Assembly (NCBI RefSeq): GCF_009914755.1
Contig: NC_060929.1
Length of the DNA: 64,000 nucleotides
From: the human T2T-CHM13v2.0 reference genome, Homo sapiens
Reading direction: 5' to 3' (one strand)
Shown here: in pieces, positions 31,182 through 57,281 of the stretch
Position numbering within the stretch: the stretch's first letter is position 1
Layout of the letters: the number at the start of each line of letters is the position of its first letter
Made by a program: the position numbers and the translations under genes
The notes under the pieces: model-generated
The model's input: only the letters and a program-made list of their open reading frames with translations
Database searches by the model: none
What the model was told of the DNA's origin: nothing

Positions 31182-33250
31182 GTGAACGATCTTTTTAATG
31201 TGTTGCTGGATTCAGTTTGCTAGCATTTTGTTGAGGCTTTGTGTGTCTATGTTCATTGGGGATACTGGCCTAAAGTTTTCTTTTCTTGTTGTATCTCTGT
31301 CTAGTTTTGGTATCAACATAATGCTGGTCTTGTGGAATAAGTTTAGAAGAATTCCCTCCTCTTCAATTTTCTGGAAGAGTTTGAGAAGAATTTTTATTAG
31401 TTCTTTAAATGTTTTGTAGAATTCTGCAATGAAGTCATCAGGTCCTGGGCTTCTCTTCAATGGGAGACTTTTTATTACAAGATTCAATCTCATTACTTAT
31501 AATTGGTCTATTCAGGTTTTCTATTTCTTCTTGGTTCAATCATGGCACATTGCATGTATACATGAATTTATCCATTTCCACTAGATTTTCTAATTTGTTG
31601 GCATATAGTTGTTCATAATAGTCTCTCATGATCACTTGTATTTCTATGGTATCAGTTGCAATGTCTCCTTTTTTGTTGGTGATTTTATGTGGACCATTTA
31701 CATTCTTGATTCATCTAGCTAATTATTTGTCAGTTTTGTTAATCGTTTCAAAAACCAACTTTTAATTTCATCGATCTTTTGTATTATTTTTTAGCGTGAG
31801 TTTTTTTATTTTATTATTATTATTATTTTATTATTATTATACTTTAAGTTTTAGGGTACATGTGCACAATGTGCAGGTTAGTTACATATGTATACATGTG
31901 CCATGCTGTTGTGCTGCACCCATTAACTCGTCATTTAGCATTAGGTATATCTCCTAATGCTATCCTCCCCCCTCCCCCCACCCCACAACACTCCCCAGAG
32001 TGTGATGTTCCCCTTCCTGTGTCCATGTGTTCTCATTGTTCAATTCCCACCTATGAGTGAGAACATGCGGTGTTTGGTTTTTTGTCCTTGCGATAGTTTA
32101 CTGAGAATGATGATTTCCAATTTCATCCATGTCCGTACAAAGGACATGAACTCATCATTTTTTATGGCTGCATAGTATTCCATGGTGTATATGTGCCACA
32201 TTTTCTTAATCCAGTCTATCATTGTTGGACGTTTGGGTTGGTTCCAAGTCTTTGCTATTGTGAATAGTGCTGCAATAAACATACGTGTGCATGTGTCTTT
32301 ATAGCAGCATGATTTATAGTCCTTTGGGTATATACCCCGTAATGGGATGGCTGGGTCAAATGGTATTTCTAGTCTAGTTCTAGATCCCTGGGGAATCATC
32401 ACACTGACTTCCACAATGGTTGAACTAGTTTACAGTCCCACCAACAGTGCAAAAGTATTTCTATTTCTCCACATCCTCTCTAGCACCTGTTGTTTCCTGA
32501 CTTTTTAATGATTGCCATTCTAACTGGTGTGAGACGGTATCTCATTGTGGTTTTGATTTGCATTTCTCTGATGGCCAGTAATGATGAGCATTTTTTCACG
32601 TGTCTTTTGGCTGCATAAATGTCTTCTTTTGAGAAGCGTCTGTTCCTATCCTTTGCCCACTTGTTGATGGCGTTGTTTGTTTTTTCTCGTAAATTTGTTT
32701 GAGTTCATTGTAGATTCTGGATATTAGCCCTTTGTCAGATGAGTAGATTGCAAAAATTTTCTCCCATTCTGAAGGTTGCCTGTTCACTTTGATGGTAGTT
32801 TCTTTTGCTGTGCAGAAGCTCTTTAGTTTAATTAGATCCCATTTGTCAGTTTTGGTTTTTGTTGCCATTGCTTTTGGTGTTTTAGACATGAAGTCCTTGC
32901 CCATGCCTATGTCCTGAATGGTAATGCCTAGGTTTTCTTCTCGGGTTTTTATGGTTTTAGGTCTAACGTTTAAGTCTTTAATCCATCTTGAATTAATTTT
33001 TGTATAAGGTGTAAGGAAGGGATCCAGTTTCAGCTTTCTACATATGGCTAGCCAGTTTTCCCAGCACCATTTATTAAATGGGGAATCCTTTCCCCATTGC
33101 TTGTTTTTCTCAGGTTTGTCAAAGATCAGATAGTTGTAGGTAAGCGGCATTATTTCTGAGGGCTCTGTTCTGTTCCATTGATCTATATCTCTGTTTTGGT
33201 ACCAGTACCATGCTGTTTTGGTTACTGTAGCCTTGTAGTATAGTTTGAAG

Positions 33251-35863
33251 TCAGGTAGCGTGATGCCTCCAGCTTTGTTCTTTTGGCTTAGGATTGACTT
33301 GGCAATGTGGGTTTTTTTTTGGTTCCATATGAACTTTAGTTTTTTCCAATTCTGTGAAGAAAGTCATTGGTAGCTTGATGGGGATGGCATTGAATCTATA
33401 AATTACCTTGGGCAGTATGGCCATTTTCACAATATTGATTCTTCCTGTCCATGAGCATGGAATGTTCTTCCATTTGTTTGTATCCTCTTTTATTTCATTG
33501 AGCAGTGGTTTGTAGTTCTCCTTGAAGAGGTCCTTCACATCCCTTGTAAGTTGGATTCCTAGGTATTTTATTCTCTTTGAAGCAATTGTGAATGGGAGCT
33601 CACTCATGATTTGGCTCTCTGTTTGTCTGTTATTGGTGTATAAGAATGCTTGTGATTTTTGTACATTGATTTTGCATCCTGAGACTTTGCTGAAGTTGCT
33701 TATCAGCTTAAGGAGATTTGGGGCTGAGACGATGGGGTTTTCTAGATATACAATCATGTCATCTGCAAACAGGGACAATTTGACTTCCTCTTTTCCTAAT
33801 TGAATGCCCTTTATTTCCTTCTCCTGCCTAATTGCCCTGGCCAGAACTTCCAACACTATGTTGAATAGGAGTGGTGAGAGAGGGCATCCCTGTCTTGTGC
33901 CAGTTTTCAAAGGGAATGCTTCCAGTTTTTGCCCATTCAGTATATTGGCTGTGGGTTTGTCATAGATAGCTCTTATTATTTTGAGATACGTCCCATCAAT
34001 ACCTAATTTATTGAGAGTTTTTAGCATGAAGTGTTGTTGAGTTTTGTCAAAGGCCTTTTCTGCATCTATTGAGATAATCATGTGGTTTTTGTCTTTGGTT
34101 CTGGTTATATGCTGGATTACATTTATTGATTTGCGTATATTGAACCAGCCTTGCATCCCAGGGATGAAGCCCACTTGATCATGGTGGATAAGCTTTTTGA
34201 TGTGCTGCTGGATTTGGTTTGCCAGTATTTTATTGAGGATTTTTGCATCAATGTTCATCAAGGATATTGGTCTAAAATTCTCTTTTTTGGTTGTGTCTCT
34301 GCCTGGCTTTGGTATCAGGATGATGCTGGACTCATAAAATGAGTTAGGGAGGATTCTCTCTTTTTCTATTGATTGGAATAGTTTCAGAAGGAATGGTACC
34401 AGTTCCTCCTTGTACCTCTGGTAGAATTTGGTTGTGAATCCAACTGGTCTTGGACTCTTTTTGGTTGGTAAGCTATTGATTATTGTCACAATTTCAGAGC
34501 CTGTTATTGGTCTATTCAGAGATTCAACTTCTTCCTGGTTCAGTCTTGGGAGGGTGTACGTATCCAGTAATTTATCCGTTTCTTCTAGATTTTCTAGTTT
34601 ATTTGCATAGAGGTGTTTGTAGTATTCTCTGATGGTAGTTTGTATTTCTGTGGTATCAGTGGTGATATCCCCTTTATCATTTTTTATTGCGTCTATTTGA
34701 TTCTTCTCTCTTTTCTTCTTTGTTAGTCTTGCTAGCGGTCTATCAATTTTGTTGATCCTTTCAAAAAACCAGCTCCTGGATTCATTAATTTTTTGAAGGG
34801 TTTTTTGTGCCTCTATCTCCTTCAGTTCTGCTCTGATCTTAGTTATTTCTTGCCTTCTGCTAGCTTTTGAATGTGTTTGCTCTTGCTTTTCTAGTTGTTT
34901 TAATTGTGATGTTAGGGTGTCAATTTTGGATCTTTCCTGCTTTCTCTTGTGGGCATTCAGTGCTATAAATTTCCCACTACACACTGCTTTGAATGTGTCC
35001 CAGAGATTCTGGTATGTTGTGTCTTTGTTCTCGCTGGTTTCAAAGAACATCTTTACTTCTGCCTTCATTTCGTTATGTACCCAGTAGTCATTCAGGAGTA
35101 GGTTGTTCAGTTTCCATGTAGTTGAGCAGTTTTGAGTGAGTTTCTGAATCCTGAGTTCTAGTTTGATTGCACTGTGGTCTGAGAGACAGTTTGTTATAAT
35201 TTCTGTTCTATTACATTTGCTGAGGAGTGCTTTACTTCCAACTATGTGGTCAATTTTGGAATAGGTGTGGTGTGGTGCTGAAAAGAATGTATATTCTGTT
35301 GATTTGGGGTGGAGAGGTCTGTAGATGTCTATTAGGTCCGCTTGGTGCAGAGCTGAGTTCAATTCCTGGGTATCTTTGTTAACTTTCTGTCTCATTGATC
35401 TGTTTAATGTTGATAGTGGGGTGTTAAAGTCTCCTATTATTATTGTGTGGGAGTCTAAGTCTCTTTGTAGGTCACTCAGGACTTGCTTTATGCATCTGGG
35501 TGCTCCTGTATTGGTTGCATATATATTTAGGATAGTTAGCTCTTCTTGTTGAATTGATCCCTTTACCATTATGTAATGGCCTTCTTTGTCTCTTTTGATC
35601 TTTGTTGGTTTAAAGTCTGTTTTATCAGAGAGTAGGATTGCAACCCCTGCCTTTTTTTGTTTTCCATTTGCTTGGTAGATCTTCCTCCATCCTTTTATTT
35701 TGAGCCTTTGTGTGTCTCTGCACATGAGATGGGTTTCCTGAATACAGCACACTAATGGGTCTTGACTCTTTATCCAATTTGCCAGTCTGTGTCTTTTAAT
35801 TGGAGCATTTAGCCCATTTACATTTAAAGTTAATATTGTTATGTGTGAATTTGATCTTGTCAT
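33251..35863 (-). pseudogene. L1 ORF2p (endonuclease and reverse transcriptase), open for 870 codons then frameshifted
   Basis: [32 protein letters not shown] (APE-like EN), QGCPLSP and LFADD (RT); frameshift at ELEKT/KVH; C-terminal pieces in ORFs 32596-33150 and 32040-32414. Confidence 0.95.
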
Positions 35864-56389: not shown

Positions 56390-57281
56390 ACAATGAGATC
56401 ACATGGACACAGGAAGGGGAATATCACACCCTGGGGACTGTGGTGGGGAGGGGGAGGGGGGAGGGATAGCATTGGGAGATATACCTAATGCTAGATGACG
56501 AGTTAGTGGGTGCAGCGTACCAGCATGGCACATGTATACATATGTAACTAACCTGCACAATGTGCACATGTACCCTAAAACTTAAAGTATAATTTAAAAA
56601 AAAAAAAAAAAGAAAGGGGCTACATTTAGCAAAGAAACTGCACTTCACTATAGCAATACACAGCGCTCTTGAAGCACCTGAAGTAAATGAAAGTGTCCAA
56701 ATCCCACTCCTACGGATTGCCTGCTATCTTAGATCCAGGAAACGCCAACATACATAAACGTGAACAAAACCAAAAAGAACTCAGCATCTATGCAAAGTTA
56801 CCATACGAGTTAAAAAAAATAGAAAATGAGAATTCAAAAATTTGGCAAATGAAAACATTCTCCTACTATGGAAAAACAGTCATAAGGCAGAAGAAAACCA
56901 TTACAGGATATTTCAACATGAATTAAATATAATGAAATCATCAACTGCCAATATTAAAGAAACAACAACCATGATTCAGAAATTGTAAAACTCAGACATC
57001 ACACTTTTTAAAGGAAGGGAACTGGGAAAAAAAGGACAAAATCTTAGAAATGACAAAACATTATACATGACATTCTCTATGTGAAAGCGTGTAGAGAATA
57101 GAAATTAAAAGAGAAAGGATAATTAATTCAAAATAAAGAAAAAATAAAGAGGCAAAGAGGATACGAGAGAAATTGACAGAAACCAAATTTATGTAAAGAA
57201 GATTCAATAATACCTATAACTAGGAGTTCCTGAAGAAGAAAAACAAAACAGTAGAATATAATATTTAAAACTGTAATTTTT

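What the first reader, a model, noticed from the sequence alone, without database searches (positions are those of the whole stretch)
31801..56606. Two inverted full-length L1s of different subfamilies share private mutations: signature of local gene conversion
Seen: both elements carry the same departures from the L1 consensus as I recall it: 5' UTR GTGCAAGAC for GTGCCAGAC (plus 50709 / minus about 37848); ORF1 GEWGP for REWGP (52266/36156); ORF2 EVK for EIK (53370/35056), ETS for ETN (53392/35034), KQL for KEL (53529/34897), RLTK for RLIK (53704/34722), SAPN for SAQN (54709/about 33720), PLTY for PHIY (55291-55294/about 33140-33144), and QQHF. Most are non-CpG changes. The third L1 at 44-47.5 kb has the consensus state at EIK, ETN, KEL, RLIK and SAQN. 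Yet the pair still differ at interleaved subfamily-type sites (129-bp 5' UTR segment, VTH/VTL, NC/NY, IDA/IDT, 3' UTR). Inference: many short conversion tracts between inverted repeats 12.6 kb apart, that is, concerted evolution of a dead L1 pair.
Basis: partly seen in the sequence, partly recalled or inferred. Interest (0 to 1): 0.8.

Follow-up and report, generated by a model that had tools for sequence, protein, structure and literature searches.

The report
Inverted L1 pair sharing rare mutations
Two dead L1 retrotransposons that inserted separately, 12.6 kb apart and head-to-head in an ARSB intron, share a handful of point mutations that are rare in all other L1 copies of the genome, most simply explained by small patches of DNA copied from one to the other, a known process seen here in a clean single case.

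Summary
A (plus strand, about 50590-56606, lacks the 128-bp 5'UTR segment) and B (minus strand, about 31800-37970, has it) are separate full-length insertions, 95.2% identical, and differ at 81 class-diagnostic sites. Yet they share 8 alleles (6 non-CpG) that are absent from 10 close relatives of each. The other 120 cross-class pairs share 0.22 on average, at most 2. The 37-mer holding both the EVK and ETS alleles occurs exactly twice in the genome, in A and B, against 2798 copies of the common form. No third copy carries three or more of the core alleles.

Not all listed sites are rare. SAPN has 321 exact copies, the PLTY T allele 152, and QQHF looks CpG-driven.

Local sequence exchange is the best reading (about 0.6), but it is not concerted evolution:
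- Overall A-B identity equals that of unlinked pairs.
- No contiguous tract exists; patches are at most 20-128 bp.
- Class markers and indels are not detectably transferred.
- Direction is unresolved.

Four of the six core non-CpG alleles lie within 334 bp of ORF2 (p=0.009). This is a new example of a known process. Ape orthologues and raw reads were not available.

The parts
50590..56606 (+). Element A: full-length L1 without the 128-bp 5'UTR segment. ORF1 frame is open but without its ATG. The ORF2 frame breaks near 55730-55790.
   Evidence: 97.7-98.1% identical to 10 full-length copies elsewhere
50575..50589 (+). 5' copy of A's 15-bp target-site duplication AAAAAGAAAGGGGCT
56607..56621 (+). 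3' copy of A's target-site duplication, after the poly-A
31800..37970 (-). Element B: full-length L1 with the extra 5'UTR segment and several frame breaks. Only a weak, imperfect target-site duplication was seen.
   Evidence: 95.0-96.0% identical to 10 copies chosen by its 5'UTR
37069..37196 (-). 128-column 5'UTR segment present in B and absent from A
   Evidence: gap of 128 in A at 51358
53370..53768 (+). Hot segment in A. It holds 53370G, 53392G, 53529C, 53704C (core, non-CpG), 53711G and 53768T (CpG), all shared with B. They are interleaved with unshared markers at 53430, 53450, 53468, 53588, 53609, 53616, 53639 and 53736.
   Evidence: 4 of 6 core sites within 334 bp, p=0.009
34658..35056 (-). 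Matching hot segment in B. For B's 34626-35126, A is the best match in the whole genome among those scored.
   Evidence: 855 bits against 841 for the next; 40 of 2591 candidates scored
52243..52266 (+). Shared 52243T (CpG) and 52266G (GEWGP) in A; partners in B are 36179 and 36156. B alone also has 52264C, two bases away.
   Evidence: 52266G: 35 exact copies in the genome
50709..50709 (+). Shared 5'UTR allele A (GTGCAAGAC); partner in B is 37848
   Evidence: 10 exact 20-mer copies in the genome, including A and B
43796..47533 (+). Third, older, 5'-truncated L1 between the pair, with a 325-bp inverted 5' piece. It shows no significant allele sharing with A or B.

Best explanation
After two separate insertions, small patches of sequence were copied between the neighbouring inverted L1s by non-allelic (interlocus) gene conversion. 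A break or nick in one copy was repaired using the homologous copy 12.6 kb away. Because the copies differ about every 20 bp, only very short stretches, at most tens of bases up to about 128 bp, were transferred. One complex or repeated event fell in the 5' part of ORF2 (53370-53768), and probably separate ones in the 5'UTR (50709) and at the end of ORF1 (52266).

Shown: independent insertion, an excess of jointly held rare alleles, and their clustering. Inferred: the repair mechanism, the number of events and the direction. Older B into younger A fits the class markers slightly better; wholesale A into B does not.

The amount transferred is tiny, about 8 to 20 sites in 6 kb, so the pair is not being homogenised.
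For: 1. Independent insertions. A has a perfect 15-bp target-site duplication. There is no flank homology. The 128-bp segment and 81 diagnostic sites put A with one class of relatives (71 of 81) and B with the other (78 of 81).
2. Excess sharing. A and B share 8 alleles absent from the 20 panel copies. The 120 control cross-class pairs average 0.22 (maximum 2), and A against B-like copies averages 0.8 (tails).
3. Genome-wide rarity (exact-match counts). The EVK+ETS 37-mer occurs 2 times (A and B), against 2798 for the common form, 39 and 18 for the single variants, and 2 old copies holding both alleles plus a CpG change. Other counts: 53529C 30, 53704C 102, 52266G 35, 50709A 10.
4. No third copy appears in three or more of these lists. 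The double carriers fetched (F2, G1, G2) share nothing else exclusive with A or B.
5. For B's 34626-35126, A is the best of the 40 matches scored.
6. Clustering. 4 of 6 core non-CpG sites lie within 334 bp (p=0.009), and 5 of 8 within 398 bp (p=0.004).
7. Shared alleles sit in longer stretches of A-B identity than unshared B alleles would (mean 59 against 40 bp, p=0.02).
8. Literature. Non-allelic conversion among transposable elements is established and for Alu is enriched within about 10 kb (PMC6598467, section 4 read; PMC8230782, passages).
Against: - There is no contiguous tract. Of 231 sites where B differs from the majority of A's relatives, A has B's allele at 20. Only 2 adjacent pairs occur (permutation p=0.51; non-CpG p=0.25).
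- Class-diagnostic markers between the shared alleles (53430, 53639, 53736, 52253, 54680, 54698) are not converted.
- The longest identical run is 128 bp, about what 5% divergence gives.
- Overall identity is not raised.
- Transfer of class alleles is not significant. A has 8 other-class alleles against 0-7 in controls. Counting only alleles unique to one copy, A has 4 against 0-3, and B has 1.
- No GC bias: among the 12 rare shared alleles W>S 5 and S>W 5, against 36 and 72 among the unshared rare ones.
- No shared rare indel; B's private deletions are not in A.
- Direction is unresolved.
- Only one assembly was examined. No ape orthologue, second human haplotype or raw read was available. 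Scans of two other collections for the diagnostic 37-mer found nothing.
Confidence: 0.6

Rival explanations
1. Exchange at the birth of A rather than afterwards. While A's cDNA was being made or integrated 12.6 kb from B, it paired with B's DNA and was patch-repaired, or the reverse transcriptase briefly switched onto nascent B transcripts. A was therefore born with a few B patches.
For: It would explain the proximity, a one-way transfer into A, and the scattered short patches over 5 kb. cDNA-mediated conversion is documented for yeast Ty and Tf2 (PMC6598467, section 4).
Against: Only B alleles older than A could be transferred. B's non-CpG private load (1.87%) is only a little above A's (1.53%). 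The shared alleles would therefore be a large fraction of the B-private alleles available at that time, and class alleles should have been copied at the same high rate. At most about 3 extra class alleles are seen in A. This argument is inference. I know of no precedent for L1 (recalled).
Confidence: 0.1
2. Shared descent. A and B both derive from one rare source lineage that kept these alleles while otherwise taking on the younger class's changes through recombination among source elements. Their proximity is then a coincidence.
For: Within a class, copies from one source do share 5-7 exclusive alleles (B-L040 6, L044-L047 7, A-L043 5), a number similar to A-B's 8. Class markers are not transferred.
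Against: A carries 71 of 81 younger-class alleles and B 78 of 81 older-class alleles, so a common side lineage would need many recombinations. No other member exists. The joint 37-mer is found only in A and B plus two old unrelated copies, and A's and B's nearest relatives lack every core allele. Two sole members lying 12.6 kb apart in 3.1 Gb is very unlikely.
Confidence: 0.1
3. Assembly or polishing cross-talk placed one copy's bases into the other.
For: Only one assembly was examined. The pattern of isolated bases rather than tracts is unusual for recombination.
Against: The copies differ at 305 sites plus indels, so long reads separate them easily. Mis-placed reads would carry all of a copy's alleles in their span, not single ones flanked by unshared markers 10-60 bp away. 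All shared differences are substitutions outside homopolymer-type indels. The accuracy of this assembly is recalled, not tested.
Confidence: 0.05
4. Independent parallel mutation at hypermutable sites.
For: Two of the eight core sites are CpG transitions (52243, 53768), and QQHF looks CpG-driven (my inference). These may well be parallel.
Against: The six non-CpG alleles include transversions (C>A, G>C). EVK and ETS are carried by 0.7% and 1.4% of copies. The others have 10 to 102 exact copies, with no denominator measured for them. Control pairs share 0.13 non-CpG alleles on average. P(6 or more) is 6e-9 to 1e-5.
Confidence: 0.03

Closest known systems
Non-allelic gene conversion between neighbouring Alu elements (Aleshin and Zhi 2010, as cited in PMC6598467 and PMC8230782; Kass 1995 and Roy 2000 as cited there)
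   Same: Dispersed, independently inserted retroelements of different subfamilies exchange sequence after insertion. Exchange is enriched for close neighbours (about 10 kb). Non-diagnostic, private mutations shared between neighbours are the signal. Partial conversions give mosaics.
   Different: Here the partners are 6-kb L1s rather than 300-bp Alus, they are 5% diverged, and diagnostic positions are not detectably transferred. The clear Alu cases (98 in PMC8230782) were scored by change of at least three neighbouring diagnostic positions. This pair would fail that criterion.
L1 gene conversion reports (Burton et al. [quoted passage not shown]
   Same: L1 copies altered after insertion by another L1 sequence.
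   Different: Those cases replace long stretches or whole elements, with the donor usually unknown or distant. Here the partner is identified, lies 12.6 kb away, and only short patches are involved. I did not read those papers.
Arm-to-arm conversion in palindromes and inverted duplications (Y-chromosome palindromes, recalled; the chr13 L1 pair L033/L053 seen here)
   Same: Inverted repeats a few to tens of kb apart on one chromatid exchanging sequence.
   Different: Palindrome arms stay nearly identical. L033/L053 are 98.6% identical with 52 exclusive shared alleles. A and B are 95.2% identical with 8, so there is no homogenisation.
Short DSB-induced conversion tracts in mammalian cells, and discontinuous ('complex') non-crossover tracts in human meiosis (recalled, not read here)
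   Same: Tract sizes of tens of bases, and several separate patches within a few hundred bases, would match the 53370-53768 cluster.
   Different: Those observations come from nearly identical substrates or allelic homologues. Nothing here shows which pathway acted.

Membership tests
Non-allelic (interlocus) gene conversion between dispersed repeats | Two paralogous copies at distinct loci that arose independently (not one duplicated insertion) | tested here: met
   A has its own perfect 15-bp target-site duplication. There is no homology outside the L1 bodies. 81 diagnostic sites and a 128-bp segment separate the classes.
Non-allelic (interlocus) gene conversion between dispersed repeats | Derived alleles shared by the two copies but absent from each copy's own lineage relatives, in excess of chance | tested here: met
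   8 shared, against a mean of 0.22 (maximum 2) in 120 control pairs. The joint 37-mer is found in A and B only, against 2798 common copies.
Non-allelic (interlocus) gene conversion between dispersed repeats | Contiguous tract in which all markers of the donor are transferred, with clear borders | tested here: not met
   20 of 231 markers are shared. Runs are of 1-2 markers and adjacency p=0.51. Unconverted class markers lie between shared alleles. There is only coarse clustering: 4 of 6 within 334 bp, p=0.009.
Non-allelic (interlocus) gene conversion between dispersed repeats | Recipient copy lacks the alleles in outgroup species or other haplotypes (polarity and timing) | not testable with these tools
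   Only one human assembly is held. Scans of genome contigs and viral contigs for the 37-mer gave 0 hits.
Non-allelic (interlocus) gene conversion between dispersed repeats | GC-biased transmission of converted sites | tested here: inconclusive
   Among rare shared alleles W>S 5 and S>W 5; among unshared rare B alleles 36 and 72. Too few sites to decide.
Concerted evolution / homogenisation of an inverted repeat pair | The two copies are more alike than unlinked copies of the same classes | tested here: not met
   A-B 95.20%; A against 10 B-like copies 94.7-95.9%; B against 10 A-like copies 95.3-95.6%.
Inverted segmental duplication | Shared flanks or target-site duplication, and uniform divergence along the copies | tested here: not met
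   Matches end at the L1 borders. The target-site duplications differ. The classes differ.
Private L1 sublineage (common source element) | Other genomic copies carry the same combination of alleles | tested here: not met
   No copy other than A and B appears in three or more of the exact-match lists (only the first 100 rows were visible). 53529C does mark a small sublineage, but one linked to 53184C, which A and B lack.

The most novel reading that the evidence does not exclude
Dead L1 copies in a chromosomal neighbourhood routinely trade very short patches, well below the tract sizes and identity thresholds usually assumed for non-allelic conversion. Rare L1 alleles would then spread locally. 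This pair would be the clearest visible case of a genome-wide micro-conversion process. That process would also underlie the regional clustering of rare-allele carriers seen in passing: 53529C on chr7 87.6-94.8 Mb and chr11 107.4-110.2 Mb, and 53392G in three old L1s within 1.6 Mb of this window. It can now be measured in complete assemblies by counting exclusive shared alleles against distance and orientation.
Probability: 0.15. Interest if true: 0.65.

Novelty: new member of a known kind. Interest (0 to 1): 0.4.

Why it matters
Ages and subfamily assignments of transposable elements assume that each copy mutates on its own after insertion. Exchange between neighbours breaks that assumption. 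It can also move variants, including regulatory or KZFP-binding sites, between copies.

This pair gives a clean, quantifiable example for 6-kb L1s that are 5% diverged. The partner is identified, the alleles are countable in a complete genome, and the amount exchanged is small: about 0.1-0.3% of sites. The practical message has two parts. Local exchange exists, but here it does not distort the divergence-based age or the class assignment of either copy.

The test used here is simple. It counts exclusive shared alleles in the neighbour pair and compares them with unlinked pairs of the same classes. It could be run on all neighbouring L1 pairs of complete genomes to measure rate, tract size, distance and orientation dependence.

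Tried and rejected
- Ancestral or subfamily state. My first expectation was that the departures from the modern L1 sequence are simply older-subfamily alleles. This is rejected for the core six: they are absent from 10 relatives of each class and from the older third L1. It is accepted for SAPN and PLTY, and for 53711G, 54668T, 55130T and 53184G, which occur in many copies.
- Third-party donor. No other copy in the genome holds the joint 37-mer, apart from two old unrelated copies, D at 93.5% and E at 85-90%.
- Long tracts. Runs of identity, sliding windows and the adjacency permutation gave nothing beyond what 5% divergence produces.
- Direction. Class markers speak against wholesale A-to-B transfer: 1 unique A-class allele in B, where about 6-10 would be expected if 8-12% of A had been copied (inference). 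They are compatible with B-to-A (4 unique in A against 0-3 in 11 controls), but this is not significant.
- GC bias: none detectable.
- Shared indels: none.
- Exchange with the third L1: C3-B 4 exclusive alleles against 0-4 for C3 with other B-like copies; C3-A 1.
- G1 (chr2 125.03 Mb) and G2 (chr2 76.36 Mb), which carry 2-3 of the alleles, were tested as possible lineage mates. They share 1 and 0 further exclusive alleles with A and B, and such double carriers are expected by chance among several hundred carriers.
- Independent human sequence was sought in genome contigs and viral contigs: 0 hits.
- A first crude control with the 28 partial loci was uninformative outside the selected segment: B 4, others up to 4, some through misaligned truncated loci.
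- The earlier-findings tool was not open.
Four of the eight loci were fetched.

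
Full report
**What is there.**
The window holds three L1s.
- A is on the plus strand, body about 50590-56606.
- B is on the minus strand, about 31800-37970.
- C3 is an older 5'-truncated copy on the plus strand (44119-47533) with a 325-bp inverted 5' piece (43796-44120).

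A and B align over their whole length with 305 mismatches and a few indels. The largest indel is a 128-column stretch of 5'UTR present in B (about 37069-37196) and absent from A. A is flanked by a perfect 15-bp target-site duplication, AAAAAGAAAGGGGCT (50575-50589 and 56607-56621). B's flanks show only a weak, imperfect one. Homology stops at the L1 borders. These are therefore two insertions, not a duplicated one. Both are inactive: A's ORF1 frame is open but lacks its ATG and its ORF2 frame breaks near 55730-55790, and B has several breaks. Subfamily names such as L1PA2/3/4, and the link of the 5'UTR segment to ZNF93, are recalled. No tool here assigns them, and I saw only a search listing for that literature.

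Every listed motif is present in both copies at the stated coordinates. The solved human ORF2p (8uw3) has EIK, ETN, KEL, RLIK, QQPF, SAQN and MPHIY at these places. C3 has EIK, ETN, KEL, RLIK and SAQN.

**Are the shared alleles merely subfamily states?**
The window's own genome could be searched.
- With A's 53300-53800 as query, 40 of 1511 candidates were scored. B ranked 24th (98%), and other copies reached 99%.
- Full-length A has at least 13 full-length relatives at 97-98%, and B was not among the 25 scored.
- With B's matching segment (34626-35126) as query, A was the best of the 40 scored: 855 bits against 841 for the next.
- In the 28 other 3.5-kb loci, the four segment alleles (53370G, 53392G, 53529C, 53704C) each occur in a few copies, but in disjoint sets of copies, never together.

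Exact pattern counts over the whole genome gave:
- EVK+ETS 37-mer: 2 copies, namely A and B.
- With one mismatch allowed: 61 hits. These were the 2 exact ones, 39 with only ETS, 18 with only EVK, and 2 old copies with both alleles plus a CpG change. Those two old copies are D (93.5% to A) and E (85-90%), and they lack the other core alleles.
- Common 37-mer: 2798 copies.
- 53529C 30, 53704C 102, 52266G 35, 50709A 10, each count including A and B.
- By contrast, 54709C (SAPN) has 321 and 55291T (in PLTY) 152. PLTY is also in L043, A's nearest relative.
- QQHF sits at a codon that varies among the copies examined (P/R/H/C); a CpG origin is my inference.

These last three are dropped from the core list. 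Only the first 100 rows were listed.

**Controlled test.**
I fetched two panels of full-length copies:
- Panel PA: the 10 full-length copies closest to A (L043-L052; 97.7-98.1% to A).
- Panel PB: 10 copies chosen only by similarity to B's 5'UTR piece 36800-37400 (L033-L042; 95.0-96.0% to B).

Alleles shared by a pair and absent from the other 20 copies were counted. A-B has 8 (6 non-CpG): 50709A, 52243T, 52266G, 53370G, 53392G, 53529C, 53704C and 53768T. The other 120 cross-class pairs have a mean of 0.22 and a maximum of 2. A against the ten B-like copies gave 0, 0, 0, 1, 1, 0, 2, 2, 1, 1. Poisson tails are 1e-10 and 2e-6. Within a class, pairs reach 5-7 through a common source, so the size of the A-B signal is that of close kin, although the two belong to different classes.

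Two copies that turned up in two allele lists were tested as possible kin. G1 (A-like) and G2 (B-like) share 1 and 0 further exclusive alleles with A and B. 53529C does mark a small sublineage, but 8 of 9 of its members examined carry 53184C, which A and B lack.

**What does not fit simple conversion.**
- Overall A-B identity (95.20%) equals that of unlinked cross-class pairs.
- At the 231 sites where B differs from the majority of A's relatives, A carries B's allele at 20. These are 8 alleles common in B's class and 12 rare ones. They occur as singletons or doublets (2 adjacent pairs; permutation p=0.51).
- Unshared markers bound each shared allele within 20-128 bp.
- A has 8 other-class alleles at 80 diagnostic sites, against 0-7 in controls. 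Counting only alleles unique to one copy, A has 4 against 0-3, and B has 1. None of this is significant.
- There is no GC bias and no shared rare indel.
- C3 shows no excess sharing with either copy.

**What does fit.**
- The core alleles are clustered: 4 of 6 non-CpG sites lie within 334 bp (53370-53704; p=0.009), and 5 of 8 within 398 bp (p=0.004).
- Shared alleles lie in longer stretches of A-B identity than unshared B alleles would (59 against 40 bp; p=0.02).
- Non-CpG divergence from their own panels is 1.53% for A and 1.87% for B. The two have therefore coexisted for most of their history, which leaves time for several events.

**Reading.**
Chance and hotspots are excluded. A common source lineage would need a side lineage that took on 71 of 81 younger-class changes yet left only these two members, 12.6 kb apart. 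Cross-talk in assembly would carry whole read-lengths of alleles, not single bases flanked by unshared markers.

The remaining explanation is local exchange between the two copies in very short, partly clustered patches. That is non-allelic gene conversion, as documented for neighbouring Alu elements within about 10 kb and for other transposable elements (PMC6598467, section 4 read; PMC8230782, passages). An older L1 report was seen only as a reference.

I put this at about 0.6. The lack of any multi-marker tract, the absence of class-marker transfer and the single assembly keep it from being higher. An exchange at the time of A's insertion, a shared source, and an artefact share most of the rest.

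Direction is open. Wholesale A-to-B transfer is disfavoured by the class markers (inference), and B-to-A is compatible. 'Concerted evolution' is not an apt description, because the pair is not being homogenised.

**Limits.**
- The panels are small (10+10 full-length copies, 28 partial).
- Searches with DNA queries scored only 25-40 of thousands of candidates.
- Exact-pattern counts miss carriers with a second change in the probe.
- No outgroup, second haplotype or read data were available.
- My searches for L1-specific neighbour conversion are not exhaustive, so I make no claim that it is unpublished.

Noticed in passing
G000 C7:87.59-94.83 Mb and C11:107.37-110.22 Mb (lists); loci L013, L014, L060-L063: Carriers of the rare allele 53529C are strongly clustered. 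Of 28 other carriers, 6 lie on chr7 within 7.2 Mb and 4 on chr11 within 2.9 Mb. That gives 5 pairs within 1 Mb, against 0.24 expected if uniform. Eight of 9 examined also carry 53184C, so it is a small sublineage. One chr11 pair 11 kb apart is 99.05% identical and is probably a duplication. Two chr7 copies 0.7 Mb apart are only 97.05% identical. I have no explanation for why a sublineage should be regional.
   Followed up: partly
L054, L055, L056 (G000 C5:79.19, 80.88, 80.91 Mb): Three older full-length L1s (92-94% to A, about 92% to each other), all within 1.6 Mb of the window, carry the ETS allele 53392G with an otherwise intact 37-mer. Genome-wide there are only 39 such copies. One also has 54709C and one has 53704C. 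Their exclusive sharing with A or B is not above controls.
   Followed up: partly
L033 and L053 (G000 C13:79067770-79073930 and 79045150-79051320): Two full-length L1s in inverted orientation 18 kb apart are 98.6% identical and share 52 alleles found in no other panel copy. This is either an inverted duplication or a truly homogenising pair. It is a useful contrast to A-B.
   Followed up: no
window 43796-44120 and 44119-47533: The third L1 is 5'-truncated and carries a 325-bp piece in inverted orientation at its 5' end. This is the layout usually ascribed to twin priming (recalled).
   Followed up: no
window 31485-31684: A 200-bp stretch abutting B's 3' end is 73% complementary to A's 53738-53937 (pair I16). 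It is an old L1 ORF2 fragment next to B, too diverged to be a plausible donor.
   Followed up: no
window 36158 (B) and L059 (G000 C4:148554850-148561050): B has a private G>C two bases from the shared 52266G (A coordinate 52264). The same two-base combination occurs in one other copy in the genome, an old L1 only 84% identical to A. That copy also has 53704C and 53768T. This may be coincidence, or these may be states of much older L1 families.
   Followed up: partly
window 31800-56621, inside an ARSB intron (hub annotation): The two 6-kb L1s are inverted within one intron of a gene transcribed from the minus strand. The pre-mRNA could therefore fold into a long imperfect duplex. This was not examined.
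   Followed up: no
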